DNA of 64,000 nt, taken from NCBI GenBank assembly GCA_937965695.1, contig CALCKW010000027.1:8150-72149 (forward strand), in the 5' to 3' direction. A program made the position numbers and the translations under genes. Shown here one piece after another: positions 23,914 to 29,082 of the stretch. The notes under the pieces are model-generated. The model ran no database searches, had not been told where the DNA came from, and saw only the letters and a program-made list of their open reading frames with translations. Origin of the DNA: an uncultured Granulosicoccaceae bacterium. Its GTDB lineage: Bacteria; Pseudomonadota; Gammaproteobacteria; CALCKW01. Position 1 is the stretch's first letter; every line of letters starts with the position of its first letter.

Positions 23914-24531
23914 ATGACTGCATCGGGGCATAATGTTAAGCCACGACGCACAAGAAAACCTCACATGAGCAAAGATCGGCAGGACGACAATCAAAAAAGC
24001 TTCGCCGACGAGTTTGCCTCATTCCACGGCGATATCAGCGGAATGAAGCCTGTGCACGATGACAGGGCTCCTGTCTTTCATCGCAAACCAAAGCCTATTC
24101 CGCGTCAGTCTAAACTAGACGATAAACGGGTGATGGAAGAACTGCTTCATGGCGAGGTCGACGCCGAAGACCTTATCGGCAGCGAGCACATTAGCTATGC
24201 GCGTGCAGGTGTTCAAAATAGCGTGATGCGAAAACTGCGCAAGGGAAATTTCGCTATCCAGGCCGAGTTAGACCTACACGGATATACCGTCGAAGAAGCC
24301 CGACAAGAAACAGCCTTGTTTTTGATTGCTTGCGCTGATGATGATCTGCGCTGTGTGCGGATTATTCACGGCAAAAGTGGCCACGTGCCTGGTCAGCCGC
24401 CGCGTATTAAAAATATGTTAGCGCGTTGGCTACCCGCGCGTTCGCAGATACTCGCACTCTGCTCGGCTCGGCCCGAGGATGGTGGGACGGGCGCACTGTA
24501 CGTGTTGCTGCGAAAGTCTAACCGCGATTAA
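23914..24531 (+). CDS. Smr/MutS2 domain protein (SmrA/YdaL-like)
   Basis: LDLHG, IIHGK, GGTGALYVLL. Alternative start at 23965. Confidence 0.88.
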   Translation: MTASGHNVKPRRTRKPHMSKDRQDDNQKSFADEFASFHGDISGMKPVHDDRAPVFHRKPKPIPRQSKLDDKRVMEELLHGEVDAEDLIGSEHISYARAGVQNSVMRKLRKGNFAIQAELDLHGYTVEEARQETALFLIACADDDLRCVRIIHGKSGHVPGQPPRIKNMLARWLPARSQILALCSARPEDGGTGALYVLLRKSNRD

Positions 24532-24630
24532 GCACAACTGACTTAACAATCCTTGCCACTTAACCCAATGTCTACAATAAAAAGCCGGCTGAGACACTGC
24601 GGCAGACAACACCCATGAGATCAATATTAC

Positions 24631-26199
24631 TTACTTCTTTTGACGAAGCGATCTCCAACCACCTACCACGGAATCCAGTGCTTTTTGCAACGCTGATTTC
24701 GAACTCGTCTTTTTCGTTGCGCTGCGCTTACGCTTAGCCGTCCCATCGGCTGAGGTGGTTGCCCGGGGTTTGCGTGGCTTTTTGGGTGCATTTGGATCTA
24801 CTGGCTTTCGAGCCCTAGGTTTTAGTGCAGGCTCTTCTTCACCCAGACCAAAGCGCGCCATAACGCGGCCAAACAACCCTTTTTTTGCTGGGGCTTTCTT
24901 TGCTGTTGTTCGCTTTTTACTTGCAGCTCTGGGTTTTCGTGGCGCTGTGCGCCCTTCGGTCGCTGTCGAAGTCGCTCGACGCTTTGGCTTGGGAGCAACA
25001 ACAGGTTCGTCATCACCGAATCCGATACGCGCTAGAACGCGGCCGAACAATCCCTTTTTAACCGCGGGCTGGACCTTTGCGCGAGGTTTTCGTTTCGCTC
25101 TAGGCTTTGCTGTGATTCCGTCAGTGTTCGCGGAAGTCTTTTTTCGAGCAGCACGCTTTTTAGCAGCAGGTCGTGCTACCGCTGGTTTCGGTGTTTCTTT
25201 ACCGAGTGCTTTAGCAAGCAACACAGCAGCCTTAGCTCGCCAACCACGAACTACAGGCTCTGCTATGGGTTCCTCTTCTGCAAATTCCTCCGTTGGCACA
25301 TCAGCCACAAACTGGGATTGAGACGATTCCCCAGCGGGCATTTTTTTAGGCTTTGCGTCGGCCTTAGAAGCAACGAACTCGTGCTCGCTTTTTGCGCCAA
25401 TCTCCAAGGGCGAAGCAAGCTCTGCTGCCACAGGAGTCAGGCTTTTTTCGCCAACTAAAGATGCTGTCGCCGGTGCTTGCAACACAGCCACATCTTCGGC
25501 GCCAGTGATATCTAAAACACCTTCTGAATCATTGCTCGGGCTCTCGAATGGATACTGCTCTGCGGTAACAGTTTTGGCTTGTTCTCCAGCCTGCTCATGC
25601 TCCGTCGGGCCAATCCCGCTGCTTTCAGTCGAACCCCTTGCTACCAATACAGTTTCAGGGTGAGTCGACGCAATGTCTTTAGCGCCGTCCTGTTCCGCAA
25701 AAGCAGTTGCTTCGAGCAGCTCTTTGAGTTCCAGATCAATGGCTTGTTCTTCTAGCTCCAGATCACTGGCGGATTGCTGATGGGTCGCATCCTGTCCTGA
25801 GGCTGATTCTATTTCGCCTCTTTCAGCAAGTTGTTGCTCTTCAAGCAAAACAATCTCGGCCAGCCGTTCAGATTCTAATAAAGTCTCATCATCAAACTTG
25901 AACCCTTCTTCAGCTTCAACAGTCTCGTTGTGCAAAGTCTCTGCATTTAGAGTGCGCTGACGGGAGTCTTCTCCAGAATCGTCCTCTAGCTGGGGTGAAC
26001 CAATAAGGTGTTCCAACTCTGTTGCTGCCTGGTTTTCATCATCTGGGCCGATAGCCGTTTCAACGCCAGTTGCCGTGTCGAGCGACTCGGGTTGATGGCT
26101 TAACAAACCAGCAATTTCGATGTCATCGGATATATTTGCGAGCACAGGATCCCATCCCGACAGCGCGCTCTCGCCGCTGCGGGAATTCAATTCCTGCAA
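24631..26199 (-). CDS. Hypothetical low-complexity protein with acidic N-terminal part and Lys/Arg/Ala/Pro-rich histone-H1-like C-terminal part
   Basis: 522-aa ORF with TTG start 7 bp after the scpB stop. Contains AAKKRAARKK, AKKAPAKK and repeated KKGLFGRV.AR.G.G helices. Confidence 0.72.
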   Translation of the reverse strand: MQELNSRSGESALSGWDPVLANISDDIEIAGLLSHQPESLDTATGVETAIGPDDENQAATELEHLIGSPQLEDDSGEDSRQRTLNAETLHNETVEAEEGFKFDDETLLESERLAEIVLLEEQQLAERGEIESASGQDATHQQSASDLELEEQAIDLELKELLEATAFAEQDGAKDIASTHPETVLVARGSTESSGIGPTEHEQAGEQAKTVTAEQYPFESPSNDSEGVLDITGAEDVAVLQAPATASLVGEKSLTPVAAELASPLEIGAKSEHEFVASKADAKPKKMPAGESSQSQFVADVPTEEFAEEEPIAEPVVRGWRAKAAVLLAKALGKETPKPAVARPAAKKRAARKKTSANTDGITAKPRAKRKPRAKVQPAVKKGLFGRVLARIGFGDDEPVVAPKPKRRATSTATEGRTAPRKPRAASKKRTTAKKAPAKKGLFGRVMARFGLGEEEPALKPRARKPVDPNAPKKPRKPRATTSADGTAKRKRSATKKTSSKSALQKALDSVVGGWRSLRQKK

Positions 26200-26206
26200 A
26201 TCGGCT

Positions 26207-27391
26207 TTAGCTTTCGACGTCGGTTGAGTGTCGCCTAAGTAAGTCCGCCGGGGTTATGGATTCCCCACGCGCGGCCTCATGTTGCGAACTCTGTGATGGT
26301 GAGTTTTGTGTGCATTCGTCGGCTTCAACGGCTGCTGCCTCGGTTTCTAAGGCTGGCATATCCGCTTCGGCAGGCAGGCTTGGCACAGTTCCGGGGGTTG
26401 GGGCGCCACCTGTCGTATCTCCGCCCGCCTCAGCATCTAACATGCGAATCAGTGACTCCACATCGGCATCGATATCTTCTTGGGCCTCACCGTCACTGTG
26501 CTGGTCATCAAGTTCAGCGTCAGCGTCGTCCGTTGTCAACTGTTCCTGAGCAGCACTGGGCTTGTCCAGATGGTTAGAACCAATATCAGCGTCTTTTATC
26601 TGTTCGGATTCATCTGATATGCTTTCGATCGACATGTCGTTAGACGGCACAGCAGAAGTTTCAACGGCCTGTTCAGCTGCAACTTCGCGTTCGACGTCAT
26701 CCAGCGCCTCAGCAGATTCGGCGGTTCCATCGCTATCAGCCAATTCAGTGTCAGAAGGCTCGGCGTTTTCAGGCTGCTCATTCTCTTCACCTTCTTCGGA
26801 GTTATCGCCATCATTTGCGGCACCGCCATTGGCTTTGTCGAACTCCTCGGACGCTTTATCTAAGTCCATCAGCTCCCCCAACTCTGGCAGTTCGGAGAGG
26901 GACTTGAGGTTGAAATAGTCCAAGAATTGTTTTGTGGTGCCGTACATAGACGGACGCCCGGGCACATCGCGGTGACCCACGACTTTCACCCACTCACGTT
27001 CAAGCAAGGTGCGAATAATGTTGGAGCTGACGCTGACACCCCGCACGTCTTCGATCTCAGCGCGCGTTATCGGCTGACGATAACCGATCAGCGCTAGAGT
27101 CTCTAACAATGCGCGAGAGTAGCGCGGGGGGCGCTCTTCAAAAAGACGAGCAATCCACGGTTCCAGCGATTGGCGTACCTGCAGACGGTAGCCGCTCGAA
27201 ACGAGTTTTAACTCAATGCCCCGACCATGCAAATCTTCGCTGAGCGCGTCCAAACCCGACTGCACAAATTCTTTCGCCAACGGGGTCTCATCGTCTTCGC
27301 CCAGGAGCTGTTGCAAATGCTGCATGCTCAATGGTCTGCCAGCGGTTAACAAGGCCGCTTCAATAATATGTTTTAAAGGATGTCGATCCAC
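26207..27391 (-). CDS. scpB: SMC-Scp complex subunit ScpB with long acidic C-terminal extension
   Basis: IIEAALL, ALLETLALIGYRQPITRAEIEDVRGV, GRPSMYGTTKQFLDYFNL. Confidence 0.95.
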   Translation of the reverse strand: MDRHPLKHIIEAALLTAGRPLSMQHLQQLLGEDDETPLAKEFVQSGLDALSEDLHGRGIELKLVSSGYRLQVRQSLEPWIARLFEERPPRYSRALLETLALIGYRQPITRAEIEDVRGVSVSSNIIRTLLEREWVKVVGHRDVPGRPSMYGTTKQFLDYFNLKSLSELPELGELMDLDKASEEFDKANGGAANDGDNSEEGEENEQPENAEPSDTELADSDGTAESAEALDDVEREVAAEQAVETSAVPSNDMSIESISDESEQIKDADIGSNHLDKPSAAQEQLTTDDADAELDDQHSDGEAQEDIDADVESLIRMLDAEAGGDTTGGAPTPGTVPSLPAEADMPALETEAAAVEADECTQNSPSQSSQHEAARGESITPADLLRRHSTDVES

Positions 27392-27394
27392 AAG

Positions 27395-28387
27395 CTAACT
27401 CTCGGCCTCCAACTCAGCTTCGAGCAGGTCGGTGGAGACCAGCTCGGCTTCGGGTTCAGGTTGTGGCTGCGGCTCAAAAGGATCATCGCCACCTCCATCG
27501 TTATCGTCGTCATCTAGATCATCGTTGCCACCGCTCGGGTCATGACTGCCACGAGCACGTAGATAAATCGGCGCAAAAGGCTCCGCCTGCTGAATGTCTA
27601 CCAGAGCTTCTTTGATCAGAGTAAGAATCGCTAAAAAGCTCACCACAACACCCAAACGACCTTGTTCTGCTTTGAAGAGCGTAGAGAACTCTACGAACTC
27701 TGTAGAACTGAGCTCACTTAAGACCACACTCATGCGTTCGCGCGTCGACAAGGTCTCGCGAGAAATTTGATGGTGCGCCTGCTGGTCGACACGGCGCAGC
27801 ACATCTTGAAAGCTGAGAAGTAAATCACGCAAATCGACATCTGGCTCAGGCTTGCGCTTTTCCAAAACAGGTAACGCAGCGCTCACCAGCAGGTTATTGC
27901 GCTCAAGTCGCGGCAGCTCACTGATACCCACTGCGGCATTTTTGATTTGCTCATATTCCTGCAGTCGACGTATCAACTCAGCGCGAGGGTCATCTTCGTC
28001 TTCAATCTCCTCGGCACGGGGCAAAAGCATGCGAGATTTTATCTCAGCCAACATGGCAGCCATCAACAGGTATTCAGCCGCCAATTCCAGACGCATAAAT
28101 TCCATGACAGAGATGTATTCGATGTACTGTTTAGTGATCGCCGCGATAGGAATATCGAGGATGTCGAGATTTTGTTTTTTGATCAGGTACAACAGCAGAT
28201 CCAAGGGACCTTCAAAGGCATCAAGGAAGACTTCTAAGGCATCTGGGGGGATGTACAAGTCTTGCGGTAATTGCATTACCTGCTCACCACGAACAACCGC
28301 TATTGGCTCTTCGGGTGTCTGGTTAGGCAATGCCTCTGGTACAGGCTGCGTAGCACTCATCTGTAAATCTGCAACGGGTTTTGACAA
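27395..28387 (-). CDS. scpA: Segregation and condensation protein A (kleisin)
   Basis: FEGPLDLLLYLI, AAEYLLMAAMLAEIKSRMLLP, DPRAELIRRL, FLAILTL. Confidence 0.95.
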   Translation of the reverse strand: MSKPVADLQMSATQPVPEALPNQTPEEPIAVVRGEQVMQLPQDLYIPPDALEVFLDAFEGPLDLLLYLIKKQNLDILDIPIAAITKQYIEYISVMEFMRLELAAEYLLMAAMLAEIKSRMLLPRAEEIEDEDDPRAELIRRLQEYEQIKNAAVGISELPRLERNNLLVSAALPVLEKRKPEPDVDLRDLLLSFQDVLRRVDQQAHHQISRETLSTRERMSVVLSELSSTEFVEFSTLFKAEQGRLGVVVSFLAILTLIKEALVDIQQAEPFAPIYLRARGSHDPSGGNDDLDDDDNDGGGDDPFEPQPQPEPEAELVSTDLLEAELEAES

Positions 28388-28452: not shown

Positions 28453-29082
28453 TCAGGCTGCAGCAAAGGCACTGGATACGCCCTTACCCTGACGCAACAC
28501 TTCTAGAGGATTATTCTCGAAGGAAATAATAGTGGTCAGCTCGTTGCCACAAGCACCACCGTCGATGACGAGATCGACCTGGTGTTGCAGTAATTCACGC
28601 ATCACTTCGGGGTCGGTCATTGGGGCATCTTCGCCCGGCATGACCAAGGTGCTGGTCAACATTGGTTCACCGAGCTCTTCCAACAACATTTGTGTAATTG
28701 GGTGGTCAGGCACTCGCATGCCGATAGATTTGCGCTTCGGGTGTTGAAGCCGTCTAGGTACTTCAGCGGTCGCGCGCAGAATCCACGTATAGGGACCGGG
28801 GGTGTGTGCTTTGATGACTCTAAAAGTGGCATTGTCGAGCCGAGCGTAGGTAGCAATTTCCGACAAATCTCGAACCAGTAAAGTGAAAAAGTTGCCTTTG
28901 TTGTTGATGTTGCGAATTCGGGTGATTCGATCCATGGCTCGCTTGTCACCGAGATGGCAACCGATGGCGTAACAGGAGTCAGTGGGGTAAACCACGACAC
29001 CGCCATCCCGAATAATATCGACCGCACGCCTGATCAGGCGCAATTGAGGGTTTTGCGAATGGATTTCAAAAAATTGGCTCAT
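28453..29082 (-). CDS. yciO: Sua5/YciO/YrdC family protein (YciO-type)
   Basis: YPTDSCYAIGC, PGPYT, GMRVP, VIDGG. Confidence 0.9.
   Translation of the reverse strand: MSQFFEIHSQNPQLRLIRRAVDIIRDGGVVVYPTDSCYAIGCHLGDKRAMDRITRIRNINNKGNFFTLLVRDLSEIATYARLDNATFRVIKAHTPGPYTWILRATAEVPRRLQHPKRKSIGMRVPDHPITQMLLEELGEPMLTSTLVMPGEDAPMTDPEVMRELLQHQVDLVIDGGACGNELTTIISFENNPLEVLRQGKGVSSAFAAA

What the first reader, a model, noticed from the sequence alone, without database searches (positions are those of the whole stretch)
24631..26199. Histone-H1-like protein with repeated amphipathic helices co-transcribed with scpAB, a possible nucleoid-membrane tether
Seen: starts 7 bp after the scpB stop, in the slot often held by rluB. 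The N-terminal roughly 300 aa are strongly acidic and low-complexity. The C-terminal part (about 24631-25250) is K/R/A/P-rich (AAKKRAARKK, ASKKRTTAKKAPAKK). It is punctuated by four helices: GWRAKAAVLLAKALG, KKGLFGRVLARIGFG, KKGLFGRVMARFGLG and ALQKALDSVVGGWRSL. The two KKGLFGRV units are also a DNA-level repeat (about 24830-24890 and 25000-25060). Established: KKGxxxxLF-type helices are membrane-targeting sequences (MinD), and PAKK-rich tracts bind DNA (H1, AlgP, Hc2). Inference: a disordered factor linking SMC-ScpAB-organised DNA to the membrane.
Basis: partly seen in the sequence, partly recalled or inferred. Interest (0 to 1): 0.66.

Follow-up and report, generated by a model that had tools for sequence, protein, structure and literature searches.

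The report
Orphan charge-block protein after scpB
A small group of marine gammaproteobacteria has replaced the usual gene after the chromosome-condensin genes scpA-scpB with a conserved, mostly disordered protein that is half acidic and half basic and carries four short helices resembling membrane anchors; it may link DNA, condensin and membrane, but no binding has been tested.

Summary
ORF 24631-26199 (-) is a real gene under purifying selection, lying 7 bp (TTG start) or 61 bp (conserved GTG start) after scpB. It has an acidic N-half (net -56) and a basic K/R/A/P-rich C-half (net +49).

New here:
- The family is tiny: 8 proteins among 1.84 billion representatives, and one copy in each of the 6 genomes of one Granulosicoccaceae-like genus.
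- It follows scpB in 5 of 5 readable contexts.
- 11 of 11 outgroup gammaproteobacteria have rluB in that slot. Here rluB sits on another contig.
- ScpB and ScpA of this genus have unusually long acidic tails.
- Elsewhere in 401 Gammaproteobacteria, the GLFGRxxxRxGxGD motif occurs only in periplasmic C-terminal tails of BamE lipoproteins. That argues for a generic lipid-binding helix.

The protein belongs to no known family (Pfam, NCBIfam, PHROGs, PADLOC and PDB all negative; HC2 below cut-off). The nucleoid-membrane tether reading is plausible, with Noc as the closest analogue, but untested. An electrostatic partnership with the ScpB/ScpA acidic tails is a serious rival.

The parts
24631..26199 (-). 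ORF X: 522 aa from TTG 26199 (504 aa if the conserved GTG 26145 is the start); stop at 24631-24633
   Evidence: C-half dN 0.14-0.27 with saturated dS among orthologues
25246..26199 (-). Acidic N-half (residues 1-318), net charge -56. Length varies from 158 to 450 aa among orthologues.
25687..25890 (-). Two long acidic helices predicted with confidence (residues 104-134 and 139-171), containing ESERLAEIVLLEE. The related unit MEAERLAEIELLELEE occurs four times in tandem in orthologue L015.
   Evidence: AF2 pLDDT 74-93
24634..25245 (-). Basic C-half (residues 319-522), net +49. Its size (191-204 aa) and charge (+39 to +49) are conserved in all orthologues.
25201..25245 (-). Helix H1, GWRAKAAVLLAKALG (residues 319-333). 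G319, W320, A324 and A331 are invariant.
   Evidence: AF2 helix 320-331, pLDDT about 78
25015..25059 (-). Helix H2, KKGLFGRVLARIGFG (residues 381-395), first copy of the 58-codon repeat unit
   Evidence: AF2 helix 384-391; hydrophobic moment of the 11-mer core 0.58
24925..24945 (-). Conserved basic motif APRKPRA (residues 419-425) between H2 and H3; A419, P420 invariant and K422, P423, R424 nearly invariant. A related KPRA lies before H2.
24841..24885 (-). Helix H3, KKGLFGRVMARFGLG (residues 439-453), second copy of the repeat unit
   Evidence: AF2 helix 442-449; hydrophobic moment 0.55
24637..24693 (-). C-terminal amphipathic helix H4, ALQKALDSVVGGWRSLRQK (residues 503-521). In the second subclade it reads WRRALRRVLGR and resembles H1.
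   Evidence: AF2 helix 503-521, pLDDT about 84; hydrophobic moment 0.67
26207..27391 (-). scpB, 394 aa. The winged-helix core (about 185 aa) is followed by a 208-aa acidic tail (26210-26833, net -51) that ends in the genus-specific motif HEAARGESITPADLLRR.
27395..28387 (-). scpA, 330 aa, with an extra 53-aa acidic C-terminal tail (net -18)
28453..29082 (-). yciO/yrdC-family gene, first gene of the conserved yciO-scpA-scpB-X array. The only sigma-70-like site on this strand upstream of scpA is at 28539-28510.
23914..24531 (+). Convergent smr-domain gene that bounds the array downstream. The downstream neighbour differs among orthologous loci.

Best explanation
ORF X is a lineage-specific, largely disordered 'charge-block' protein that has taken over the rluB position at the end of the yciO-scpA-scpB array and is probably expressed with the condensin subunits.

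Proposed mechanism (inferred, not shown). The conserved basic half (about 200 aa, +39 to +49) is the working part. Its four short amphipathic helices have the order H1, [KPRA, H2], [APRKPRA, H3], H4, with H2 resembling H3 and H1 resembling H4. They insert weakly and additively into the anionic inner leaflet of the cytoplasmic membrane, in the way Noc, MinD and FtsY helices do. The K/R/P/A-rich linkers between them bind a polyanion non-specifically, most likely DNA. Together this would hold SMC-ScpAB-organised chromosome regions near the envelope. The variable acidic half would act as an intramolecular competitor or spacer that tunes this binding.

Shown here: gene reality, conservation, synteny, disorder, helix positions and recurrence of the motif in BamE tails. 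Inferred: membrane binding, DNA binding, co-transcription and any role in segregation.
For: 1. It is a real gene. One copy is present in 6 of 6 genomes of the genus. The frame stays open across genomes of very different composition. C-half dN is 0.14-0.27 while dS is saturated.
2. Synteny is conserved. yciO-scpA-scpB-X is found in the window, L015, L001, L030 and L031, while the downstream neighbour varies. The gap to scpB is at most 61 bp, with no promoter-like or terminator-like site in it. SMC is present in the genome.
3. The slot was taken over. 11 of 11 outgroups have rluB after scpB. In this genome rluB lies on contig C35 (NF007976, 289 bits).
4. AF2 gives a mean pLDDT of 53. In the basic half the only helices are the four conserved motifs. 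Invariant and nearly invariant columns cluster in H1, H2, H3 and the two KPRA-type motifs.
5. The 11-mer cores G-phi-phi-x-R-phi-phi-x-(+)-phi-G have hydrophobic moments of 0.52-0.66 in every orthologue despite sequence change, at or above MinD, FtsY and Noc helices.
6. A strict pattern for the motif hits 7 of 401 gammaproteobacterial genomes and 0 in the reversed-pattern control. All six foreign hits are C-terminal tails of BamE lipoproteins, which are periplasmic. The same motif in two compartments points to a generic lipid ligand.
7. There is a precedent. Noc tethers DNA to the membrane through a weak N-terminal amphipathic helix that needs clustering (PMC4331003). MinD, FtsA, MreB and FtsY helices are autonomous membrane anchors (PMC6158289).
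Against: Amphipathicity of the C-half as a whole is not above shuffled sequence. The H1-like resemblance is only compositional (HC2 13.8 bits against cut-off 40; no tandem array). A polybasic tract with hydrophobic helices could bind anionic membrane with its whole length and never touch DNA. It could equally bind RNA, polyphosphate or the adjacent ScpB/ScpA acidic tails. The protein's own acidic half (-24 to -98) may neutralise the basic half. A 96%-identical natural variant (P0009) lacks both H2 and H3, so these helices may be dispensable, unless that record is an assembly artefact. Synteny within one genus could be inherited from a single rearrangement and need not reflect function.
Confidence: 0.33

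Rival explanations
1. X is an electrostatic accessory of ScpAB. Its basic half (+39 to +49) forms a disordered, charge-driven complex with the genus-specific acidic tails of ScpB (-47 to -72) and ScpA (-14 to -23). One conserved helix may dock on the conserved ScpB end motif HEAARGExxTPADxLRR. X would then regulate or localise condensin, for example by recruiting it to the membrane through the helices, rather than binding DNA itself. The acidic half of X would compete with the ScpB tail.
For: ScpB is 379-510 aa in this genus and 196-312 aa in the 11 outgroup loci read (open frames of 178-357 aa for nearly all 31 outgroup matches). The conserved end motif of the ScpB tail is absent from 11 outgroup ScpBs. 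Of 3346 ORFs of at least 200 aa in this genome, the ScpB tail is the second most acidic 100-aa window and X the second most basic, and the two genes are adjacent. The charges are nearly matched. X co-occurs with the long tails in 5 of 5 loci. Known analogue (from memory): the prothymosin-alpha/histone H1 disordered high-affinity complex.
Against: No interaction test was possible, because the structure tool takes single natural sequences only. Acidic ScpB tails, though shorter, also occur in outgroups that lack X. Co-occurrence within one genus amounts to one evolutionary event. This model does not by itself explain why the H2/H3 motif is shared with periplasmic BamE tails.
Confidence: 0.27
2. 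X is a peripheral membrane or RNA-binding polyampholyte with no functional link to condensin. It landed after scpB in the single rearrangement that moved rluB away, and it has stayed there by inheritance. The basic tract plus helices would bind anionic lipid (MARCKS-like) or rRNA/ribosomes, echoing the basic tails of RluB proteins that normally occupy the slot.
For: The family is confined to one genus-level lineage, so the synteny is not independent evidence. Outgroup RluB proteins carry K/R/P-rich C-terminal tails. The motif shared with BamE tails implies lipid binding without any need for DNA.
Against: The gap to scpB is tight and no promoter-like site lies in it. The neighbouring ScpA and ScpB tails have expanded in parallel. 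The downstream neighbour has changed several times while the scpB-X junction has not.
Confidence: 0.25
3. The ORF is a spurious or decaying reading frame, for example low-complexity sequence left behind by the rearrangement.
For: No database family matches it. The start is non-ATG. The product is mostly disordered, with a mean pLDDT of 53.
Against: It is conserved as an open frame in 6 of 6 genomes and in several metagenome contigs. Motif positions are invariant, dN is far below the saturated dS, and the charge and length of the C-half are conserved.
Confidence: 0.03

Closest known systems
Noc (Bacillus subtilis nucleoid occlusion protein; ParB family)
   Same: A DNA-binding part is combined with a weak amphipathic membrane helix whose effect depends on multivalency. 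The helix end ...RFFGLGEKE (sequence from memory; residue numbers agree with the K2, S4, F5, R7, F8 and F9 mutants in PMC4331003) resembles ...ARFGLGEEE of H3.
   Different: X has no ParB/HTH or CTPase domain (no Pfam hit). It has four helices inside a disordered basic tract instead of one N-terminal helix. It would have no sequence-specific DNA binding. It is not homologous to Noc.
MinD, FtsY, FtsA and MreB membrane-targeting amphipathic helices
   Same: Short basic amphipathic helices of about 10-15 residues with comparable hydrophobic moments. The K-K-G-phi-phi start resembles MinD KKGFLKRLFGG and FtsY KKRGFFSWLGFG (sequences from memory). These helices are autonomous and transplantable (PMC6158289).
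   Different: Those helices are appended to folded ATPase, GTPase or actin domains. In X they sit in an otherwise disordered protein, and none has been tested.
Histone-H1-like bacterial proteins (Chlamydia Hc2, Pseudomonas AlgP, PhaF/PhaM C-terminal domains)
   Same: K/A/P-rich basic disordered tract. PhaF and PhaM also combine such a tract with an amphipathic surface-binding part that links a cellular structure to the nucleoid (from memory).
   Different: The HC2 profile scores 13.8 bits against a cut-off of 40. There is no tandem KPAA/AAKP array. X is rich in R as well as K, and it carries a large acidic half that those proteins lack.
C-terminal tails of BamE lipoproteins in several gammaproteobacterial families
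   Same: They carry the near-identical 14-residue motif G-F-F-G-R-[LM]-[LFW]-[ED]-K-[IVM]-G-[LVI]-G-D in 1 to 4 copies, set in acidic disordered tails.
   Different: Those proteins are periplasmic, lipid-anchored and built on a folded BamE domain. Their linkers are acidic, not basic. The tail motif itself appears to be undescribed.
RluB (usual occupant of the slot after scpB)
   Same: Same genomic position, and many RluB proteins end in a K/R/P-rich tail.
   Different: X has no S4 or pseudouridine synthase domain. An RluB-type gene scoring 289 bits against a 290-bit cut-off lies elsewhere in this genome.

Membership tests
Pfam PF07382 HC2 (histone H1-like nucleoprotein Hc2) | Profile score at or above the gathering threshold (40 bits) | tested here: not met
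   13.8 bits, E 0.063, no stretch passing on its own
AlgP/PhaF-type H1-like domains | Tandem array of short KPAA/AAKP-type repeats | tested here: not met
   TRF finds no array at minimum score 30 in 24500-27500. The repeat finder shows only a two-copy unit 174 nt apart.
Noc/ParB | ParB N-terminal (CTP-binding) domain and HTH DNA-binding domain | tested here: not met
   No Pfam or NCBIfam hit. No PDB sequence hit with the profile at E up to 10.
Noc/ParB | Amphipathic membrane helix needed for peripheral localisation | not testable with these tools
   Helices are predicted; localisation requires an experiment.
MinD-type membrane-targeting sequence | Short helix with a hydrophobic face flanked by basic residues | tested here: met
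   H2 and H3 cores have hydrophobic moments of 0.55-0.58, and 0.52-0.66 across orthologues; H4 has 0.67. AF2 models helices at 384-391, 442-449 and 503-521. However, the top-4 moment of the C-half is not above shuffles.
MinD-type membrane-targeting sequence | Autonomous, transplantable membrane binding | not testable with these tools
   Needs GFP fusions or liposome assays.
RluB (NF007976) / PseudoU_synth_2 (PF00849) | S4 domain plus pseudouridine synthase catalytic domain | tested here: not met
   No hit for X. The likely rluB is on contig C35 (289.2 bits against cut-off 290).
SMC-ScpAB operon component | Conserved position directly after scpB, same strand, short gap | tested here: met
   5 of 5 loci with readable context.
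SMC-ScpAB operon component | Co-transcription and physical association with ScpAB | not testable with these tools
No complex prediction was possible.
Phage or defence gene | Match to PHROGs or PADLOC models | tested here: not met
   0 families in each library.

The most novel reading that the evidence does not exclude
X and the hyper-extended acidic tails of ScpB and ScpA form a genus-specific, fully disordered polyelectrolyte module on bacterial condensin. The +39 to +49 basic half of X would pair with the -47 to -72 ScpB tail, in the manner of prothymosin-alpha and histone H1. The four lipid-binding helices of X would then anchor the SMC-ScpAB holocomplex, and so the loops it extrudes, to the inner membrane, and the acidic half of X would act as a competitive switch. 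This would be the first dedicated membrane adaptor of a bacterial SMC-ScpAB complex. The GFFGRxxxKxGxGD helix shared with BamE tails would be a portable, compartment-independent lipid-binding motif.
Probability: 0.12. Interest if true: 0.8.

Novelty: new variant of a known kind. Interest (0 to 1): 0.47.

Why it matters
How bacterial SMC-ScpAB complexes are positioned relative to the envelope is poorly understood. No accessory subunit that couples them to the membrane is known to me, and the two literature searches aimed at this locus found nothing relevant. This locus offers a compact natural experiment. A single lineage swapped the near-universal gammaproteobacterial rluB for a disordered charge-block protein, and it also lengthened the acidic tails of both kleisin-associated subunits. 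If the protein binds membrane and DNA or ScpB, it would show that disordered polyelectrolytes can evolve quickly into chromosome-organising adaptors. Separately, the shared 14-residue helix in BamE tails may be an unrecognised lipid-binding motif of wider use. If none of this holds, the finding is a lineage-restricted orphan of limited reach: one genus of mostly uncultured marine bacteria.

Tried and rejected
- Family assignment failed. Pfam gave only HC2 below cut-off. NCBIfam, PHROGs and PADLOC gave nothing. The PDB gave nothing for the basic half and one chance-level hit (E 0.71) for the acidic half.
- Homologue searches found very little. The word-indexed search returned 3 relatives. An exhaustive profile search of 1.84 billion representatives returned 8 proteins. 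A region-restricted search on H2-H3 added nothing. A scan of genome contigs found 2 loci, both Granulosicoccaceae MAGs.
- A relation to FtsY was rejected. This genome's FtsY is short, lacks an acidic A domain and does not carry the motif. A strict peptide regex over the whole genome hits only X.
- I rejected the idea that X is a remnant of rluB: it has no synthase or S4 signal, and a near-threshold rluB match lies elsewhere in the genome.
- The hydrophobic-moment excess over shuffles is not significant, so it is not used as evidence.
- No convincing intrinsic terminator follows X (fold z-score +0.46).
- This genome's BamE was not located with a simple regex, so whether it carries the motif is unknown beyond the negative regex.
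- Earlier findings of this scan held nothing on this stretch or on similar sequences.
Full report
**1. What is there**

The minus strand of the window carries yciO (28453-29082), scpA (27395-28387), scpB (26207-27391) and then the ORF in question, X (24631-26199). The convergent smr gene (23914-24531) bounds the array. ScpA, ScpB and YciO are clear Pfam and NCBIfam matches. X matches nothing: Pfam gives only HC2 at 13.8 bits against a cut-off of 40, and NCBIfam, PHROGs, PADLOC and PDB sequence searches are empty or at chance level.

The repeat is 24828-24885 versus 25002-25059, 58 nt at 76% identity, 58 codons apart.

The 7-bp gap to scpB holds only if TTG 26199 is the start. The public gene call starts at GTG 26145. 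That GTG and the 12 nt GCGCTGTCGGGA before it are conserved in the orthologue of L015, whereas the sequence just after the scpB stop has diverged. The start is therefore ambiguous and the gap is 7 or 61 bp. No promoter-like or terminator-like site lies in the gap.

**2. Anatomy**

- Residues 1-318 have net charge -56 and residues 319-522 have net charge +49.
- AlphaFold2 with a 10-sequence alignment gives mean pLDDT 53 and pTM 0.23, so the protein is mostly disordered.
- It models two confident long helices in the acidic half (104-134 and 139-171, pLDDT 74-93).
- It models exactly four short helices in the basic half: 320-331, 384-391, 442-449 and 503-521.
- The basic half has internal symmetry: H1, [KPRA...H2], [APRKPRA...H3], H4. 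H2 resembles H3 through the 58-codon duplication. H1 resembles H4 (WRxxxxR[LV]LGR in the second subclade).

**3. Is it a real gene, and how widespread is it?**

The word-indexed search of 5.8 billion proteins returned three relatives. An exhaustive HMMER profile search of 1.84 billion representatives returned eight proteins in all. All six species-level genomes of the window's genus have exactly one copy. That genus is the whole of its GTDB family and order as held here, and NCBI labels two of the genomes as Granulosicoccaceae MAGs. In a sample of 401 Gammaproteobacteria only same-genus genomes gave true hits.

Across orthologues the basic half keeps its length (191-204 aa) and charge (+39 to +49). 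The acidic half varies from 158 to 450 aa and from -24 to -98. Invariant and nearly invariant columns cluster in H1, H2, H3 and the two KPRA-type motifs. Within the closer subclade, dN of the basic half is 0.14-0.27 while dS is saturated. X is therefore a genuine gene under purifying selection.

**4. Link to scpAB**

In every locus where the upstream side can be read, X directly follows scpB in a yciO-scpA-scpB-X array. These are the window, L015/G001, L001/G004, L030/G002 and L031/G005. The downstream neighbour differs among them: smr, xylose isomerase, a large adhesin-like gene or a small secreted protein.

In 11 of 11 outgroup gammaproteobacteria inspected, the gene after scpB is an S4+GRLD pseudouridine synthase, that is rluB, often with a basic tail. 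In this genome the best rluB candidate is on another contig. It scores 289.2 bits against NF007976, whose cut-off is 290 bits. SMC is present. The caveat is that all of this lies within one genus and may trace to a single event.

**5. Neighbouring peculiarities**

- ScpB is 379-510 aa in this genus and 196-312 aa in the 11 outgroup loci read. Open frames are 178-357 aa for nearly all 31 outgroup matches; the two longer ones are a contig-truncated locus and a frame that lists as 285 aa.
- Its acidic tail of 194-325 aa (net -47 to -72) ends in a conserved motif, NHEAARGE[SP][IV]TPAD[SL]LRR, that is absent from the outgroups.
- ScpA also has an extra acidic tail of 44-56 aa.
- Among 3346 ORFs of at least 200 aa in this genome, the ScpB tail is the second most acidic 100-aa window and X contains the second most basic one.

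**6. The helices**

Taken as 14-16-mers the H2 and H3 motifs are only weakly amphipathic, and the four best windows of the basic half do not exceed shuffled sequence (292 of 500 shuffles reach the observed value). The 11-residue cores G-phi-phi-x-R-phi-phi-x-(+)-phi-G have helical moments of 0.52-0.66 in every orthologue, and H4 has 0.67. The literature confirms that such helices are autonomous membrane anchors (PMC6158289). It also confirms that Noc uses a weak N-terminal helix, effective only when clustered on DNA, to pull DNA to the membrane (PMC4331003).

**7. An unexpected relative of the motif**

The weak profile hits outside the genus were mostly BamE lipoproteins whose C-terminal tails carry 1-4 copies of (K)KGFFGR[LM][LWF][ED]K[IVM]G[LVI]GD[DEN]E (BamE domain at 1e-24 to 1e-26). 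A strict degenerate DNA pattern for the motif hit 7 of 401 genomes, with 0 hits for the reversed-pattern control. The six foreign hits are all BamE tails.

BamE tails are periplasmic. X has no signal peptide and should be cytoplasmic. A motif shared across compartments is most simply a lipid-binding helix, not a site for a specific cytoplasmic partner. I found no paper describing this BamE tail motif.

**8. Interpretation**

The basic half would bind the anionic inner leaflet through four weak helices and bind a polyanion, probably DNA, through its K/R/P/A linkers. That would place scpAB-linked chromosome regions at the envelope, with the acidic half as a tuner.

A strong rival (about 0.27) is that the polyanion is the neighbouring ScpB/ScpA tail, which would make X an electrostatic adaptor of condensin. 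A third reading (about 0.25) is that X is a membrane-binding or RNA-binding polyampholyte whose position after scpB is historical. The spurious-ORF reading is essentially excluded.

'Histone-H1-like' should be read as a statement about composition only. X is not a member of HC2, AlgP-type, ParB/Noc or RluB families. A natural variant 96% identical to the G005 orthologue lacks both H2 and H3, which warns against assuming these helices are essential.

**9. What could not be done**

No complex prediction was possible with the tools available. Binding and phenotype need bench work.

**10. Verdict**

X is a previously undescribed, narrowly distributed family, and its proposed mode of action is a variant of known DNA-membrane and amphipathic-helix tethers. 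Interest is moderate at 0.47. The locus and the BamE motif are curious and testable, but the lineage is narrow and nothing functional has been shown.

Noticed in passing
L024, L025, L026, L027, L028, L078, L079, L082 and protein P0008 (other Gammaproteobacteria): BamE (PF04355) lipoproteins from several families carry acidic C-terminal tails with 1-4 copies of the motif (K)KGFFGR[LM]xEKxGxGD[DE], nearly identical to H2 and H3 of ORF X. A strict pattern hits only these tails and ORF X in 401 genomes, with 0 control hits. I found no literature on it.
   Followed up: partly
window 26210-26833 (-), and the ScpB genes of L015, L001, L030, L031: ScpB of this genus has an acidic tail of 194-325 aa (net -47 to -72) ending in a conserved motif NHEAARGE[SP][IV]TPAD[SL]LRR that 11 outgroup ScpBs lack. 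ScpA also gains an acidic tail of 44-56 aa.
   Followed up: partly
L015 4679-6637 (+): The orthologue in MAG JAWSVD010000325 is 652 aa. Its acidic half contains four tandem units of about 35 aa (EVSLMEAERLAEIELLELEESESQAE...TSQEGLFEEP). The window's protein has one related copy at residues about 100-125.
   Followed up: no
protein P0009 versus L031 2328-3392: A 96%-identical variant carries an in-frame 80-aa deletion that removes both GLxxR helices (H2 and H3) and the linker between them. This is either real strain variation or an assembly collapse between repeats.
   Followed up: partly
own genome contig C35 (L011 1276-2100, -): rluB has moved away from scpAB. It now lies between a moaB-like gene and a small DUF-like gene plus a nitrilase-family gene, and it keeps only a short basic tail.
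   Followed up: partly
L023 (G139:C16, minus strand, ORF of about 448 aa): An unrelated protein with no Pfam hit carries a single DGLFGRIRQRLGLGD motif near its C-terminus, in a different context from BamE and ORF X.
   Followed up: no
protein P0008, residues 238-250: The KKGFFGRMWDKVG motif gives a weak sub-threshold match to the start of Pfam DUF5363 (18 bits against cut-off 25.8). Small DUF5363 proteins may begin with the same kind of helix.
   Followed up: no
own genome contigs C11 (ORF of about 869 aa) and C56 (ORF of about 440 aa): Other proteins of this genome end in long K/A/S-rich basic tails (for example ...KKKASSKKKSSAKKKAAAKKKASAKKED). Basic disordered tails are therefore not unique to ORF X in this organism.
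   Followed up: no
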